DNA from: Octopus sinensis
Taxonomy: Eukaryota
Length of the DNA: 42,326 nucleotides
Direction of reading: 5' to 3'
Assembly: GCF_006345805.1 (NCBI RefSeq)
Contig: NW_021835172.1
Coordinates: forward strand, 1-42,326
Shown: one piece after another, positions 7,052 through 42,326 of the stretch
Numbering within the stretch: position 1 is the stretch's first letter
Layout: every line of letters starts with the position of its first letter
Position numbers: made by a program

Positions 7052-10000
7052 CACATGCACACACACATACACACAAGACATTTCCATGCCAAAAACTGTA
7101 AGTTATTCCGCCTTTGTAAAATATATGTATTCTGATATTTCGTTATAGAAATTTACCTCTGGCAATAATAATTGGGATTCCCCTTGTCACCGCTCTGAAT
7201 ATTCTAACGAATGTCTCATATCTGGCTGTTATGACAAAACGGGAGCTCTTACAGTCATCTATAGTCGGTGGGGTACGTTGTTCTTTGCTTTCCTATCAAA
7301 CTAAATATTGAATGTATTGACATTGAGGATAAATGCATTTACACCATGCATTTCATTTTAAGTTTCTCTGCCTCCACAGTCAAAGATGTGTGGCACCTTA
7401 CATACACACACACACACACACACACTCACATACCAAGCTTATATACTCCTGCTTTATTTTTTCTTTCCTCCATCTGACTTTGTGATAAAGAGTGTAAGCT
7501 CAAAATATTAAAGACACTTTACTTTTCTTATCTCTCATTCTGTGCCAAACTAATTATCATTACATTCTGTTTTCACTTTGTCTTGTCATTGTTCTCATCA
7601 ATAATATTCAACAGTCCTTTGCTCAGTAAACTTGTGGGGACTGAGGAAGCTGGAAGTAAATGAATGGCTTGTGAAAGCTGTACAAACCATGTACAGGGGT
7701 ATTGACAAGAGGGTGAAAGTTAGCAACAGTGAAAGCACGTGGCATAGTGGTAAGAGTGTTGCATGCATGATTGCCAGATTACAGGTTCAGTTCCTGGAAC
7801 AGGTGACATGTGTTATTGAGAAAAACACTTCAAGTTTCTCTAGTGCTATGTGGAGACTGGCATGTAAAAAAGTATTTCCATATTCTCATATTGACTGGCA
7901 TGTGAAAGAGCATCTATATTTCCTCTGCATGTCATAAAAGGTGACTAAAAGAGATTGAAATAGGATTTGAACACTGGGGTTGTTTAATTGACTAAGAGGG
8001 TAGTGAAATCAGTACTTGATCTATTTGAGAGGGCTTACTAGAAACTGATGAAGAAATTTAAAGACCTGTACCATGTTAAGCCATTGATTAGCAATGAAAT
8101 GTAGATTGGGGAAATGGAGACACTCATAATATCAAAATAATTTCGAACATCAAAACACAATGAAAAAATGTAATGCAGTGCTTGGCACCTGATACCCAGA
8201 TCAGGATGAACAAATTACATAGAACTCTGTTACCTTTGGGGCACTGTTTTACATGGGTTGCCATTTCAGAGCTGTGAATGTTGGTTTTAATGTTGGGCAG
8301 TTACCTTTTGGTATTGGTGACATAGCCATTGATTGTACAGTAGTTAAAAACTGTTATCTAGTAGCTCAATATGATACAATCTAAATAATAGTCTGCTTTG
8401 TTTGTTTGACCATTAGACTTTAGTTAGTTAGAGAGGTGGAGTAAAAGTGAGAGGGGGCAGGAGAAGAAATGTGAGTAGAGAAGAAAGAAGAGAGGAGTAT
8501 AATAATACACTAAGGCCAAATGCATCACATGGTTAGTTGAAGGGAGAGGTGAAGAGTGAGAGAAAAGTGGGAGAGAGAAGTGGTAATGATGTGCTGTAGG
8601 GTGGGGAAGGAAAGGCGAAGAGAAAGAGAGAAATGTTATGAAGAGGGGAATTACATGGTTAAAAAGTTTGTTGAAGAAGAGAGGAATAGAAATTTGAAGT
8701 GCTTAGCAGAGGGAAGTTTTAAAATCATATAATGTATTATTGGGACAGGAAGTGAAATAATTTGGTAAAATAAAATTAAAAATCATCCTTTCTTTCTTAA
8801 ATAGCTTCTCTTATCTTTTTTTGTTCTGTGGAATTTCCACAGATCCCAATAGTATAATACATAATATAACATTTGATTGAGGAAAGGCGGTGAGCTGGAC
8901 GAAATGCTTAGTGGTATTTCATCTGTCTTTACATTCTGAGTTCAAATTGCACCAAGGTTGACTTTGCCTTTGGTTCTTTTTGAGTCAATAAATTAAGTAT
9001 CAGTTGCGTACTGGGGTCGATCTAATCTGCTGGCCCCCACCCCAAAAGTTTCGAGCCTTTTGCCTAGAGTAGAAAAGAATATTTCATGAAACACTTCAAG
9101 GTAGTGAGCAGCATGGCCCGAGTCCAATAACTGAAATAACTAAAGAGTGAATAGAGACCACCTGTCTCTATTTGTTTACCTCTATCTCTATACAGGATGG
9201 CTCAAAAGTAGGTTTACAGTTATTCAAATATCTCTTTCACATTTATATATTAAAAGTTTAGATCTTTATTAAGAAAAAAATATGAAACCATTATTCTTTG
9301 CTAATTTAGTTAATTGTAAGATAGAAATATAAATGTAATAAAATGTTTTAAAAGAAATTTAAAGTGCCCGTGTGATTAACTGTAAATCTATACACTGTAT
9401 ATCTGGTTATTTTCATCTATCTCTATCTGTCTGTCAATCCGCCTGTCTGTCTCTGTCTATCAGCTTCTCTCTCTGTGTCTATCTGTCATTCTATCTCTCT
9501 CTGTCTATCAGTCACTCTCTCTATCCATCTCTGTCTATCTATCAATTTATCCCTGTTCCTCTATCTACTGTTGTCTGTCTTTTTCCGTAATAAATTTTTT
9601 AAAATGTACACAGTTACAAATTTATATTTATTTACATGACATTCAGGTCTGATAGTTCCTGCACCCCACCACAAGGTTTGGATATGATCTATGTTGTTTT
9701 TGTTCTTCTTTTTAATTAATCAGTCAAACACAAAACAAAAAACAAATAAAACAAATTCTTCAAGATGCAAATTTCTAAAGAATACTTATTTTTTTCCAGT
9801 TATGGGCTGATCGAGTTCTTGGGGTTGCTGCCATTATAATACCAATTTCTGTGGCCATGTCAACGTTTGGCGCAACAAATGGAATTTGTTTCACAAGTGG
9901 GCGGTGAGTATAAGTTTCCAGCCCATATTTTGTTTCATCTTAATAATAGTAACGATGTTTATGATGATGGTTATATTAATGAAGATGGAGGTGGGGAGGA

Positions 10001-11328
10001 TGAGAAAGTGACGATGGTGGTGTTGAAGATGATGTCAATGATGACGGTAATGGCAGTGAAGTTTATTACATGATTATCAAAATATTTTCCTATTTTCTGC
10101 ATGTAGGTTCTTGCATTTTATTTGGAGCGATGTAGTTTGTCCACCGATGCGACGAAGACCATCTAGTCATCCTGGGGTGGGGGTGGGCTTGTTTTGTGAG
10201 TCTGCAGATGGCTAGTGAGGCCAATCTGGGCCCATTCTTCCTGGCTTATCTGCGGTCTTCTGCAACAGCGATCCTATTGGTCTCGCATGTGTTGGCACCC
10301 TTGTCGACAGCTGATATGGGTCTCAAATTCTGATACAACGCCAGCAATGTTATGTACTGGAGTCAATCTGATCAGTTATACCTGTTCTCCAAAATGTGAG
10401 GCCTTGGGAAACATTATCATATGGGAAGGATCTAGATAGAATATTCCATTTCATATAAATTTGTTTATTATAAAGGTAGTGAAGAAAGGAAGAGAAGAGA
10501 GAAAATTACTTCTGGTTCTGATGTCTTGTTTACATAGGTAGTTCATCATCTCACTTGATGAAAAGAATATCTAACAATTACTCTACATATCAATAAATAC
10601 AAAAATTCTGGGATTAATAAATTAATTTGGTCACTAAAGGAACATAATAAACAAATTGATATGAAATGGAATATTCTATCTAGATCCTTCCCATATGATA
10701 AAGGTAAATCTTTTTGTCCGCTCTGTAATCACGAACAATTTCTCATCCTGCTTTCAGAGAATTTTCTTCTGAACTTGTTTAAAGAATGCATTTATCATTA
10801 TAAACATTGGCAAAAACATACCTTTAGTTCCTATAAGTAATTTCTACCAATCTATAAAATTTGACCTTTAACTACCTTCTTACATTTCATTTCCACTGCA
10901 TATATCTATTTCCATGCTTTTAAGCTTTATTCCAATTCATCTATCACGCTATATTTCTCCACTCTTGATTTTCCGTTAATATCTTTCTTTCTCCTTTTTC
11001 CCTTTCACCAAATTGCCTTGGACATTAAATCTATTAACATCTAAGAAGAAATTGCTTAATGAAAGACGTGTGAGCGTTCTATCTTGTACACACTATTCTA
11101 AATATGTGTTTAGAAAATTTTATTAAGTGTCTATATTTGTACTCATATGTATCCATTTATATGTGTACATGTATATGTATATACGAATAATCATATATTT
11201 GAGTATATGCATATATATATATTTGTATACATGGGTACATGTTGTTTGTATTTATCTGATGCTATTTATAGCTTGTTTTGCATATGTTTGTGCATATATA
11301 TATGTATATATATATGTGTGTGTGTGTG

Positions 11329-11364
<36 letters not shown>

Positions 11365-40057: not shown

Positions 40058-40253
40058 ATGCTCTTAGTTTAGTTTTTTCCTTGGTGCTGGCCAGATTGGA
40101 GCAATCTCGAGTATAATCTGGAACTCGCCTGGGGAAAGAAAACTCCGAATGACTCTTCCTTGTTTTCTTTGTATCATATGTCTGGATGTTTTGTTGTCCC
40201 CTGTTTTGTATCACCTAACTGTCTGGATGTATTGCGTTCTTGTCCCGTTTTTG

Positions 40254-40287
<34 letters not shown>

Positions 40288-42326
40288 CACGCACATATGT
40301 ATGTATGCATGCATGTGTCTATGTATGGATATGTCTATGTGTATGTGTATATATGTATGTATATGCACATATAATTTAACAACACAACAGAAAATATAAG
40401 AATGCAGAAGTATCATATACTTGACTTACTAAGAATATAAGGGAGATGACAGGAGTTTTCTTCCTGATGTGAAGATAGGAGAGAACCTGTGGGAGATGAC
40501 CCTCCCTTGCTGCAGCAAAACTCAGCCTAAAGATGTCAAGATAAGACATTTATAACAGTAATCATGGTAACAATAACACATGCAATATCACAAATGTATA
40601 TGTACGAGTGGGGTGGTGAAAACACCTGTATCAAGTATTGAGGGCACTAACAGAAAGACATATACATCAACCCCAGAGTTTAATCGGTACTTATCTTATC
40701 AATTCCAAAAGGATGAAAGACAAAGTTGACCTCGGTAGAGTTTGAACTCAGAATATAAAGACAGATGAAATGCCACTAAGAATATCACCCGGCGTTCTAA
40801 TAATTCTGCCAGCTCTCCGCCTTAATAGATTTGGTAATATTCTTTTCTACTCTAGGCACAAGGCCCGAAATTTGGGGGGAAGGGGCCAGTCGATAAGATC
40901 GATTCCAGTACGCCACTGGTATTTAATTTATCGACCCCGAAAGGATGAAAGGCGAAATAAACCTCGGCGGAATTTGAACTCAGAACGTAGCGGCAGACGA
41001 AATACCTATTTCGTTACTACCCACAAGGGGCTAAACACAGAGAGGACAAACATAGACAGATAAACGGAATTTGAACTCAGAACGTAGCGGCAGACGAAAT
41101 ACCGCTAAGCATTTCGCCCGGCGTGCTAACGTTTCTGCCAGCTCGTCGCCTTATCTTTGATATAAATATTATTTCCTACACTAGGCACAAGGCCCTAAAT
41201 TTGGGGAGAGGGAGCCAGTCGATTAGGTCGACAACAGAACGCAATTGGTATTTAATTTATCGACCCCTAAAGGATGATAGACGAAGTCAACCTCGGTGGA
41301 ATTTGAACTCAGAACGTAAAGACAGACGAAATACCTATTTCTTTACTACCCACAAGGGGCTAAACACAGAGGGGACAAACAAGGACAGACAAACGGATTA
41401 AGCCGATTACATCGACCCCAGTGCGTAACTGGTACTTAATTTATCAACCTCGAAAGGATGAAAGGCAAAGTCGACCTCGGCGGAATTTGAACTCAGAACG
41501 TAGCGGCAGACGAAATACCGCTAAGCATTTCGCCCGGCGTGCTAACGTTTCTGCTAGTTCACCGCCTTATAGATTTGGTAATATTACAACTCCAAATTAA
41601 AATAAGTATCAGTTGAGTGCTGGGGTCGATGTAATCGATTTTCCCCTTCACCCGAATTTGCTGGCCTCGTGTCAAAATTTTAAACCGATATTACTGTTCT
41701 AAATATTTTGTAATATTACTGCTAAATGGCAAAATCGTTTGCATGCCGGGCAAAATGCTTAGCGGCCTTTCATCCGTCTGTACCTTTTGAGTTCAAATTT
41801 CGCTGAGGTCGAATTCACCTTTCATCCTTTTGGAGGTCAATTGAATAAGTACCAGAATAAGAACACTGGGGTAGATCTAATCAACTTAACCCCTCCCTAA
41901 AAATTACTGGCCTTGTGCCAAATTTCGAAATCAGTATTACTGCTCCAAATAAATTGCAAGAACCTACATGCAGAAAATATGAAAATATTTTGATAATCAT
42001 GTAAAAAACTTCACTGCCATTACCGTCATCATTGACATCATCTTCACCTATTTCTATATTGCCCACAAGGGGATAAACATAGAGAGATAAACAAGGACAG
42101 ACAAAGGGATTAAGTCGTTTACATCGACCCCAGTGCGTAACTGGTACTTAATTTATCGACCCCGAAAGGATGAAAGGCAAAGTCGATCTCGGCGGAATTT
42201 AAACTCAGAACGTAACGGCAGACGAAATTTTCGCTAAGCATTTCGCCCGGCGTGCTAACGATTCTGCCAGTTCGCCGCCTGCAGTTTGCCATCTTCAACA
42301 CCACCATCGTCACTTTCTCATCATCC

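What the first reader, a model, noticed from the sequence alone, without database searches (positions are those of the whole stretch)
9995..42326. Tail-to-tail inverted duplication of a b(0,+)AT/SLC7A9-like transporter, both copies intact in the window
Seen: exons E-H and much intron sequence (e.g. 19320-20110 vs 37100-37850; 16870-17640 vs 38200-39060; 9995-10128 vs 41941-42326) recur in reverse complement, with a spacer of about 9 kb (24377-33539). All splice sites and frames are preserved, and the proteins differ at 25 of 167 residues. Inference: a lineage-specific duplication with both copies under purifying selection. Private transposon insertions in each arm argue against a simple assembly echo.
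Basis: partly seen in the sequence, partly recalled or inferred. Interest (0 to 1): 0.7.

Follow-up and report, generated by a model that had tools for sequence, protein, structure and literature searches.

The report
Convergent octopus SLC7A9-like gene duplicate
A small Octopus sinensis contig carries two diverged, tail-to-tail copies of the last exons of an amino-acid transporter gene (SLC7A9-like); it is a real, old and already annotated gene duplication of an ordinary kind.

Summary
Two collinear reverse-complement arms (L 10024-24376, R 42046-33540) flank a 9,163-bp repeat-rich spacer. They are 87.9% identical over 3,738 alignable columns.

Each arm carries four equal-length exons (E-H, 505 nt) with every AG/GT kept. 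The exons encode the C-terminal third of a b(0,+)AT/SLC7A9-like transporter.

- **Contig:** the window appears to be a whole 42,326-bp Octopus sinensis contig, so neither copy is complete. R has only E'-H', and no exon D' was found.
- **Already annotated:** R matches a public 175-aa protein exon for exon. L exons D-H match a 419-aa one.
- **Age:** the duplication predates the O. sinensis/O. vulgaris split (AU p = 0.0056), and an O. bimaculoides protein groups weakly with R.
- **Selection:** pairwise dN/dS is 0.43, about 1 in the tail exon. R is the fastest-evolving octopus sequence in the protein tree. It still keeps its reading frame, its splice sites and 35 of 37 deeply conserved residues.
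- **Gene conversion:** a perfect 210-bp stretch at the inner arm ends suggests recent conversion.

This is an ordinary gene-family expansion of low interest. The adjacency of the arms needs long reads.

The parts
10024..24376 (+). Left arm (L) of the inverted duplication, 14,353 bp
   Evidence: First and last collinear inverted blocks; block identities.
33540..42046 (-). Right arm (R) of the inverted duplication, 8,507 bp
24377..33539 (.). Spacer of 9,163 bp. Repeat-rich, with no protein domain found.
   Evidence: None of the ORFs >=70 aa in the spacer had a credible Pfam match; the only row there is a sub-threshold Mhr1 match at 32611-32964. No SLC7 exon was found. It holds internal dispersed repeats, for example 25292-25695 vs 29849-29429 at 86%.
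1661..1760 (+). L exon A (about residues 184-217 of the 475-aa O. sinensis protein P0002)
   Evidence: tblastn. Frame and AG/GT. 32 of 32 residues identical to O. vulgaris P0001.
4392..4436 (+). L exon B
   Evidence: 14 of 14 residues identical to P0001.
7149..7272 (+). L exon C. Open and spliceable, but only 34 of 41 residues match P0002.
9800..9903 (+). L exon D. It has no counterpart in the R arm inside the window.
   Evidence: 34 of 34 residues identical to P0002 and P0003. One search found no D'.
12830..12926 (+). L exon E (97 nt)
   Evidence: Its translation is an exact substring of P0003 at position 253.
17114..17263 (+). L exon F (150 nt)
   Evidence: PDB b(0,+)AT residues 354-409, E = 6.8e-16. 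Substring of P0003 at position 285.
20447..20615 (+). L exon G (169 nt)
   Evidence: PDB b(0,+)AT residues 407-459. Substring of P0003 at position 335.
21400..21488 (+). L exon H, coding part; TAA stop at 21486-21488
   Evidence: Substring of P0003 at position 392.
40430..40526 (-). R exon E' (97 nt)
   Evidence: Exact substring of P0092 at position 9.
38630..38779 (-). R exon F' (150 nt)
   Evidence: The ORF around it hits AA_permease_2 at E = 0.0029, 17 bits, below the cut-off. Substring of P0092 at position 41.
36337..36505 (-). R exon G' (169 nt)
   Evidence: Substring of P0092 at position 91.
34141..34229 (-). R exon H', coding part; TAA stop at 34143-34141
   Evidence: Substring of P0092 at position 148.
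24167..24376 (+). Perfect 210-bp match to 33749-33540 at the inner end of the L arm. It consists of a short (AAC)n run, 32 nt of unique sequence, and the first 178 nt of a SINE-like element.
   Evidence: None of 2000 shuffles reached a perfect run of this length; the maximum was 99.
33540..33749 (-). R partner of the perfect 210-bp match. Its SINE-like copy (33540-33717) is cut off at position 178 of about 240, where arm homology ends.
24199..24440 (+). Full SINE-like element at the inner end of the L arm. The family gives 16 hits in the window.

Best explanation
The window is a small Octopus sinensis contig from a cluster of b(0,+)AT/SLC7A9-like genes. These encode light chains of heteromeric amino-acid transporters.

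**Layout.** It carries two paralogous copies whose 3' ends face each other.
- L (+ strand) has exons A-H, residues 184-475.
- R (- strand) has exons E'-H', the last 168 codons. These correspond roughly to the last three or four transmembrane helices plus the cytosolic tail.

**History.** An inverted segmental duplication made the pair well before O. sinensis and O. vulgaris split, probably around the split from O. bimaculoides. Since then the arms have drifted to about 12% mismatch and picked up private SINE-like, microsatellite and other repeat insertions. They have occasionally exchanged sequence by gene conversion, most recently over the 210 bp at the inner arm ends.

**Status of the copies.** Both copies remain protein-coding. 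L is tightly conserved. R evolves several-fold faster under relaxed but real constraint.

**Shown:** the anatomy, the family assignment, the counts, and the rejection of a species-specific origin. **Inferred:** gene conversion, continued function of R, and true adjacency of the arms in the genome.
For: **Anatomy:**

**Family**
- Exon-level PDB hits to b(0,+)AT.
- The public protein P0092 contains each R exon translation as an exact substring. It scores 49 bits on AA_permease_2 against a cut-off of 27.
- P0092 hits 6yup_D residues 326-483 at E = 2.3e-44.

**Species and contig**
- L exons D-H are 100% identical to O. sinensis P0003.
- P0092 is recorded on one contig of 42,326 nt, which is the window length.

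**Age**
- The AU test rejects R plus O. sinensis L-type as a clade (p = 0.0056).
- The ML tree puts O. bimaculoides P0093 with R (67/87).
- Divergence: non-coding p = 0.121 gives a JC distance of 0.13, and dS = 0.198. With the rate implied in PMC13282606 (JC 0.09 at 25 My, 0.12 at 33 My; passage), my arithmetic gives roughly 18-27 My.

**Coding retention in R**
- No stop codon, no net frameshift, and all 7 splice sites kept.
- Non-coding blocks show 47 gap openings per 2,977 ungapped columns. That predicts about 8 indels in 505 nt (Poisson P(0) about 3e-4). Using the cleanest long block, the prediction is 5.4 (P about 0.005).
- 53 random substitutions give a mean of 35.7 residue changes. None of 5000 runs gave 24 or fewer, the observed number.
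- R keeps 35 of 37 columns that are invariant in 8 non-Octopus rows, the same as L.
- A 175-aa open counterpart exists in O. bimaculoides.

**Gene conversion:** perfect runs of 194 (+16), 95 and 83 nt, against a shuffle median of 50 and a maximum of 99.
Against: - R's upstream exons were not found. Arm homology stops at L 10024, 120 bp downstream of exon D, and R 42047-42326 is SINE-like repeat.
- Both the O. sinensis and the O. bimaculoides R-type models are 175 aa and start at the same intronic ATG. That would also fit a 3'-only fragment.
- Exon H has dN/dS of about 1.
- If synonymous changes are split evenly and most replacements are assigned to R, R's own dN/dS would be roughly 0.5-0.8. 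This is my estimate, made without outgroup DNA.
- The grouping of P0093 with R is weak. A duplication after the O. bimaculoides split is not rejected (p = 0.125), and P0093 is about as far from L (19 of 168) as from R (20 of 168).
- No protein of 178 aa or more matches R better than 88%.
- Adjacency of the arms rests on one small, probably unplaced contig. It comes from an assembly with 13,516 scaffolds, 86.09% of sequence in chromosomes and 5.2% duplicated BUSCOs (PMC10700109, passages).
Confidence: 0.62

Rival explanations
1. R is only a 3' gene fragment. The inverted duplication copied exons E-H plus part of intron D-E and nothing upstream. R is then a truncated pseudogene or non-transporter remnant. 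Its open frame is kept mostly by gene conversion from L, not by selection on its own product.
For: - Homology ends 120 bp short of exon D, and no D' is present in the 1.8 kb upstream of E'.
- The R-type models in two species are both 175 aa and start at the same intronic ATG.
- No longer protein matches R.
- Exon H has dN/dS of about 1.
- Long perfect runs lie inside exons E and F and at the arm end.
Against: - R 40605-41941 is filled with inserted SINE-like copies, so exon D' may simply be pushed beyond the contig end.
- Conversion from L cannot explain 12 R-specific and 11 R-type-shared residue differences that persist without any frame damage.
- The R-type C-terminal exon is shared with O. 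bimaculoides and partly with Argonauta. R-type has therefore stayed open as its own lineage.
Confidence: 0.25
2. L and R are real paralogs, but their tail-to-tail adjacency is an assembly error. The contig would be a chimaera joined somewhere in the repeat-rich spacer.
For: - The window equals a whole 42,326-nt contig.
- L exons D-H encode exactly what P0003 on a 59.36-Mb scaffold encodes, so part of the contig may be a redundant copy of a placed region.
- The spacer consists of dispersed repeats.
- The assembly is known to be redundant and partly unplaced (PMC10700109).
Against: - There is no N and no break in the sequence.
- Arm homology runs symmetrically right up to both spacer edges and ends inside one SINE-like element. 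A true inverted-duplication breakpoint predicts this. A random false join does not.
Confidence: 0.1
3. The two arms are the two haplotypes of a single locus, folded together by the assembler.
For: The O. sinensis assembly has more duplicated BUSCOs than the other octopus assemblies.
Against: - 12% mismatches, 47 gap openings and arm lengths of 14.4 vs 8.5 kb.
- 25 of 167 residue differences.
- An R-like protein in another species.
- The tree rejects a within-species origin.
Confidence: 0.02

Closest known systems
Human b(0,+)AT / SLC7A9, light chain of the rBAT-b(0,+)AT cystine and dibasic amino-acid exchanger (PDB 6yup, 6li9, 6lid)
   Same: - It is the best solved-structure match for exons F and G (E = 6.8e-16 and 6.4e-10).
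- It is also the best match for the whole R-type protein P0092 (residues 326-483 of 487, E = 2.3e-44).
- The match falls in the same Pfam family, AA_permease_2.
   Different: - Only the C-terminal part lies in the window.
- The octopus genes belong to a multi-copy cluster with at least three N-terminal types among the annotated proteins.
- Transport activity and heavy-chain pairing are untested.
Public O. sinensis protein 'b(0,+)-type amino acid transporter 1-like', 175 aa (P0092)
   Same: Each R exon translation is an exact substring at positions 9, 41, 91 and 148. The protein is recorded on a contig of 42,326 nt.
   Different: The model starts at an in-frame ATG inside the former intron, 7 codons upstream of the E' acceptor. 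It is therefore a truncated model and not proof of a complete gene.
Public O. sinensis proteins P0003 (419 aa) and P0002 (475 aa), and O. vulgaris P0001 and P0075
   Same: L exons D-H are 100% identical to P0003, and 199 of 200 residues identical to P0002. L exons A and B are 100% identical to O. vulgaris P0001.
   Different: - These proteins are recorded on Mb-scale scaffolds, not on this contig.
- L exon C matches none of them above 35 of 41 residues.
- P0003 and P0001 skip exons present in L.
O. bimaculoides 175-aa protein, named by UniRef 'Cationic amino acid transporter C-terminal domain-containing protein' (P0093)
   Same: It has the same length, the same start and the R-type C-terminal exon. 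It groups with R in the ML tree (67/87).
   Different: It differs from R at 20 of 168 residues. It keeps the ancestral residues where R has 12 private changes.
Gene-bearing genomic palindromes kept alike by arm-to-arm gene conversion, such as the primate Y-chromosome palindromes (recalled, not searched)
   Same: Inverted arms around a spacer, a gene copy in each arm, and patchy stretches of perfect identity.
   Different: Arm identity here is 87.9%, not above 99%. Any conversion is therefore rare and local.

Membership tests
SLC7 / APC-superfamily amino-acid transporters (Pfam AA_permease_2, PF13520) | Profile match above the curated cut-off | tested here: met
   - P0092 (= R exons) scores 49 bits against a cut-off of 27, profile positions 294-420 of 427.
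- P0003 scores 158 bits and P0002 scores 228 bits.
- A single exon ORF alone reaches only 17 bits (1 of 113 ORFs).
b(0,+)AT (SLC7A9) subgroup of heteromeric-transporter light chains | Closer to b(0,+)AT than to LAT1/2, y+LAT, xCT or Asc-1 | tested here: met
   - b(0,+)AT chains score E = 2.3e-44 to 4.1e-43, against 1.3e-27 for the next kind.
- Exons F and G are individually best to b(0,+)AT.
- Exon E alone is slightly better to xCT and LAT2.
b(0,+)AT (SLC7A9) subgroup of heteromeric-transporter light chains | Complete 12-helix core | tested here: not met
   - The window holds residues 184-475 for L and 308-475 for R only.
- The missing parts may lie off the contig.
- This is a failure of the window to show the feature, not proof that it is absent.
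b(0,+)AT (SLC7A9) subgroup of heteromeric-transporter light chains | Conserved cysteine in the loop after helix 3 that bonds to the heavy chain (rBAT); feature recalled, not from a call | not testable with these tools
   That exon lies upstream of the window for both copies.
b(0,+)AT (SLC7A9) subgroup of heteromeric-transporter light chains | Exchange of cystine or cationic amino acids for neutral amino acids | not testable with these tools
   Needs expression with octopus rBAT.
Inverted segmental duplication (palindrome) | Two collinear reverse-complement arms around a spacer | tested here: met
   11 collinear inverted blocks and 3,738 aligned columns.
Inverted segmental duplication (palindrome) | Arms homogenised by gene conversion | tested here: inconclusive
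   - One 210-bp perfect stretch was reached by none of 2000 shuffles.
- Runs of 95 and 83 nt exceed the 97.5% point of 76.
- Overall identity is only 87.9%, and no third sequence is available to show tract direction.
Unprocessed pseudogene | Disabling mutation: stop, frameshift or lost splice site | tested here: not met
   None was found in the 4 R exons or the 8 L exons. At the start of H', an apparent -1/+1 change within 5 nt keeps the frame.
Processed pseudogene (retrocopy) | Loss of introns | tested here: not met
   R keeps all three introns, with homology to L's introns.

The most novel reading that the evidence does not exclude
R-type is not a full transporter gene. It would be a stand-alone 4-exon gene, born from a 3'-only inverted duplication. 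It would encode a 175-aa membrane mini-protein: the last helices and tail of b(0,+)AT, started from an ATG in the former intron. It would have been kept open in at least two Octopus species for tens of millions of years. Such a fragment could act on the parent transporter or its heavy chain, for example as a decoy or assembly modulator.
Probability: 0.1. Interest if true: 0.45.

Novelty: new member of a known kind. Interest (0 to 1): 0.17.

Why it matters
The value is modest.
- It documents that octopuses carry a small cluster of b(0,+)AT-like light-chain genes, with one fast-evolving R-type member.
- The convergent pair shows signs of local gene conversion.
- The public models of this cluster are partial or skip exons (175, 354 and 419 aa).
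- Practically, a 42-kb, probably unplaced contig with one arm encoding the same protein as a placed gene should be checked for redundancy before gene-family counts are made.
- No open question in transporter biology or genome evolution turns on it.

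Tried and rejected
**Searches that found nothing**
- Rfam at gathering thresholds: 0 matches. ARAGORN: 0 tRNA genes. The tRNA-like look of the roughly 240-bp repeat is therefore only my impression.
- Pfam on 135 ORFs of 70 aa or more gave one transposase remnant, outside the arms. Nothing credible was found in the spacer.
- Low-stringency tblastn for exon D' or any further SLC7 exon in 40527-42326 and 21489-34140 gave noise only (best E 0.086).

**Ideas rejected**
- That the perfect 210-bp inverted pair marks the terminal repeats of a 9.6-kb DNA transposon.
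  - The pair is collinear with the arms.
  - It consists of a microsatellite, unique sequence and a SINE-like copy that is full length in L and truncated in R.
  - The interior has no transposase.
- Haplotype fold-back and retrocopy readings (see rivals and membership).

**Steps that could not be made**
Accessions and isoforms of the public proteins were not seen.
- No eukaryotic genome collection was on hand. The genome-contig collection holds only bacteria and archaea and was not used. The chromosomal copy and the orthologous DNA therefore stayed unchecked.
Whether L itself has a model on this contig was not asked with 'near' lengths.

**Literature**
- 'SLC7A9' + 'octopus' found 4 papers, none about this duplication judging by titles and abstract starts.
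- No supplements were consulted.

Full report
**1. What is in the sequence**

The window is 42,326 nt, has no N and is about 37% G+C. A self-comparison gives 19 inverted matches between 9000-25000 and positions at or beyond 33000. Eleven of them form one strictly collinear chain, from 10024-10128 / 42046-41942 to 24167-24376 / 33749-33540. The other eight are dispersed-repeat hits.

Re-aligning the eleven blocks gives 3,738 ungapped columns at 87.9% identity. Block identities run from 71.5% to 100%. The arms are unequal: L 10024-24376 is 14,353 bp and R 33540-42046 is 8,507 bp. Each holds private insertions.
- R has SINE-like copies at 34547-34678 and 35043-35268, and a cluster of them at 40686-41919.
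- R also has an extra roughly 320-bp element at 35970-36285.
- L has other dispersed repeats at 13621-13875 and 14400-14640.
- Microsatellites and minisatellites have expanded differently in the two arms.

The spacer is 24377-33539, 9,163 bp. It contains no credible protein domain in ORFs of 70 aa or more and no SLC7 exon.

**2. The genes**

I searched the model exon by exon and did not join the exons into a spliced sequence. That joined step is left out. Where a full-length comparison was needed, I used public proteins that contain every exon translation as an exact substring.

Exon ORFs match solved b(0,+)AT/SLC7A9 chains.
- Exon F matches residues 354-409 (E = 6.8e-16).
- Exon G matches residues 407-459 (E = 6.4e-10).
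- Exon E matches the SLC7 light chains generally.

A protein search with exon F returned 91 proteins among 127 candidates. The top hits were Octopus vulgaris, O. sinensis and Argonauta hians 'b(0,+)-type amino acid transporter 1-like'.

Local tblastn with these proteins, plus inspection of the flanks, gives the exon maps.
- L, + strand: A 1661-1760, B 4392-4436, C 7149-7272, D 9800-9903, E 12830-12926, F 17114-17263, G 20447-20615, H 21400-21488.
- R, - strand: E' 40526-40430, F' 38779-38630, G' 36505-36337, H' 34229-34141.

All have AG acceptors and GT donors and compatible phases. The two genes converge, with their stop codons about 12.6 kb apart.

**3. Where the window comes from, and what is already known**

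A search with exon G' at 'near' lengths found 2 proteins among 3 candidates.
- P0092 is an O. sinensis 175-aa 'b(0,+)-type amino acid transporter 1-like'. It is recorded on one contig whose length is 42,326 nt, the length of the window.
- P0093 is a 175-aa O. bimaculoides protein.

Each R exon translation is an exact substring of P0092. Each of L exons E-H is an exact substring of the 419-aa O. sinensis protein P0003. So the window is most likely a complete small contig of the O. sinensis assembly, and R is already annotated. The R model starts at an ATG seven codons inside the former intron.

That assembly has 13,516 scaffolds, 86.09% of sequence in chromosome scaffolds and 5.2% duplicated BUSCOs (PMC10700109, passages read). 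Redundancy and misjoins are therefore live concerns. P0003 and P0002 are recorded on a 59.36-Mb scaffold, yet they encode exactly what L exons D-H encode.

L is also a mosaic relative to the public proteins.
- Exons A and B are 32 of 32 and 14 of 14 identical to O. vulgaris P0001.
- Exon C matches at best 35 of 41.
- Exons D-H are 100% identical to O. sinensis P0003.

The annotated proteins show at least three different N-terminal types. The locus is therefore a multi-copy cluster, not a simple pair.

**4. Completeness**

Neither copy is complete in the window. L lacks residues 1-183. R has only the last 168 codons. Arm homology stops at L 10024, 120 bp after exon D. R 42047-42326 is SINE-like repeat. 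A low-stringency search found no exon D'. No protein of 178 aa or more matches R better than 88% (5 proteins among 63 candidates). Whether R has upstream exons beyond the contig end cannot be told here.

**5. Selection**

Nei-Gojobori counts, summed exon by exon, give pS = 0.174, pN = 0.081 and dN/dS = 0.43. From the per-exon rows, my arithmetic gives about 0.28 for E-G and about 0.97 for the tail exon H.

Fifty-three random substitutions on the L exons give a mean of 35.7 residue changes. None of 5000 runs gave 24 or fewer. Replacement changes have therefore been removed somewhere on the tree, but a pairwise figure cannot say in which copy.

In the protein tree, R has the longest terminal branch among the Octopus sequences: 0.10, against 0.04 for P0093 and 0.006 for L. 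Of the 25 L/R differences, O. bimaculoides P0093 agrees with L at 12, with R at 11, and with neither at 2.

Evidence that R is still constrained:
- It has no stop. This is weak evidence, because the chance of no stop under 53 random hits is 0.25.
- It has no net frameshift. Non-coding blocks carry 47 gap openings per 2,977 ungapped columns, so about 8 would be expected in 505 nt. Using the cleanest long block, 5.4 would be expected. Intron indels cluster in simple repeats, so this overstates the case somewhat.
- All splice sites are kept.
- 35 of 37 columns invariant in eight non-Octopus lophotrochozoan rows are kept, equal to L.
- An open 175-aa counterpart exists in a second species.

I conclude that L is under strong constraint and R under relaxed constraint. 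Without outgroup DNA, R's own dN/dS can only be guessed at 0.5-0.8.

**6. Age**

A tree of 14 proteins over the 170 shared columns unites the octopods (100/99). It puts Argonauta outside (62/64). It groups R with O. bimaculoides P0093 (67/87) and groups the four L-type proteins of O. sinensis and O. vulgaris (75/76).

Forcing R to be sister to the O. sinensis L-type proteins alone is rejected (AU p = 0.0056). Forcing the duplication after the O. bimaculoides split is not rejected (p = 0.125).

PMC13282606 implies a rate of JC 0.065 at 18 My, 0.09 at 25 My and 0.12 at 33 My (passage). With that rate, the non-coding JC distance of 0.13 and dS of 0.198 translate to about 18-27 My. This is my arithmetic, and it is biased young by alignability and conversion.

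For comparison, O. sinensis and O. vulgaris split about 2.5 My ago. O. bimaculoides split 13-34 My ago.

**7. The perfect 210 bp**

L 24167-24376 and R 33749-33540 are identical. The stretch consists of a short (AAC)n run (expanded to about 70 units just outside it in R), 32 nt of unique sequence, and the first 178 nt of a roughly 240-bp SINE-like element. That element is complete in L and cut off in R exactly where homology ends. Other family members are 76-90% identical to it. No shuffle of mismatch positions gave a perfect run above 99 nt.

The simplest reading has two steps. First, the inner breakpoint of the duplication fell inside a SINE already present in L. Second, a recent gene-conversion tract erased later differences there. 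Perfect runs of 95 nt (exon E plus 20 nt of intron) and 83 nt (exon F) hint at older tracts or at constraint on silent sites.

**8. Verdict**

This is a real, old, convergent duplication inside an octopus b(0,+)AT-like gene cluster, sitting on a small contig. The genes are of a well-known family and both are represented in public annotation. No paper on the arrangement turned up in the two searches that bore on it (listings only). The finding is ordinary.

Three questions remain open: whether R is a full gene or a retained 3' fragment, whether the arms are truly adjacent, and whether L is a redundant copy of a placed locus. All three need reads or other assemblies that these tools do not hold.

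Noticed in passing
window 4966-5502 (+): A 179-aa open frame in L intron B-C matches the Tc1/mariner transposase N-terminal domain HTH_Tnp_Tc3_2 (E = 4.9e-19, 68.8 bits). It is a transposon remnant outside the duplicated arms.
   Followed up: partly
window 2226-2906, 8894-9087, 24199-24440, 28707-28888, 33540-33717, 34547-34678, 35043-35268, 40686-42280: A SINE-like family of about 240 bp gives 16 hits in 42 kb. This includes a 329-bp-period tandem array at 40741-41397. Rfam and ARAGORN do not recognise it. SINEs are reported as 11.6% of the O. vulgaris genome (PMC13282606, passage).
   Followed up: partly
whole window: The public protein P0092 is recorded on a single contig of 42,326 nt, exactly the window length. 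The window is therefore probably an entire small, likely unplaced, contig.
   Followed up: partly
window 1661-9903 (L exons A-D): L is a mosaic relative to public octopus proteins. Exons A and B are identical to O. vulgaris P0001. Exon C matches at best 35 of 41 residues. Exons D-H are identical to O. sinensis P0003. P0003 and P0001 skip exons that are open and spliceable here. This suggests several paralogs, conversion among them, or gene models that jump between copies.
   Followed up: partly
window 17791-18173 and 18946-19322 (L) vs 37840-37955 (R): L intron F-G holds an (ATAC)n run of about 97 units and an 18-bp minisatellite of about 22 units. R has only about 6 units of the 18-mer. These low-complexity stretches also create long spurious open frames, for example 17664-18437.
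   Followed up: no
window 33734-33945 (R) vs 24167-24182 (L): A trinucleotide (AAC/TTG) microsatellite has about 70 units in R but only about 4 in L, directly next to the perfect 210-bp stretch.
   Followed up: no
window 25292-25703, 26599-26980, 27243-27489, 29429-29849, 1122-1389: A second dispersed repeat family of about 400 bp occurs four times in the spacer in both orientations (83-88% identical) and once near the window start.
   Followed up: no
window 34229-34219 vs 21400-21410: At the start of the last exon, R differs from L by what looks like a 1-nt deletion and a 1-nt insertion 5 nt apart, or alternatively three substitutions. This turns Glu-Ala into Lys-Pro while keeping the frame.
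   Followed up: partly
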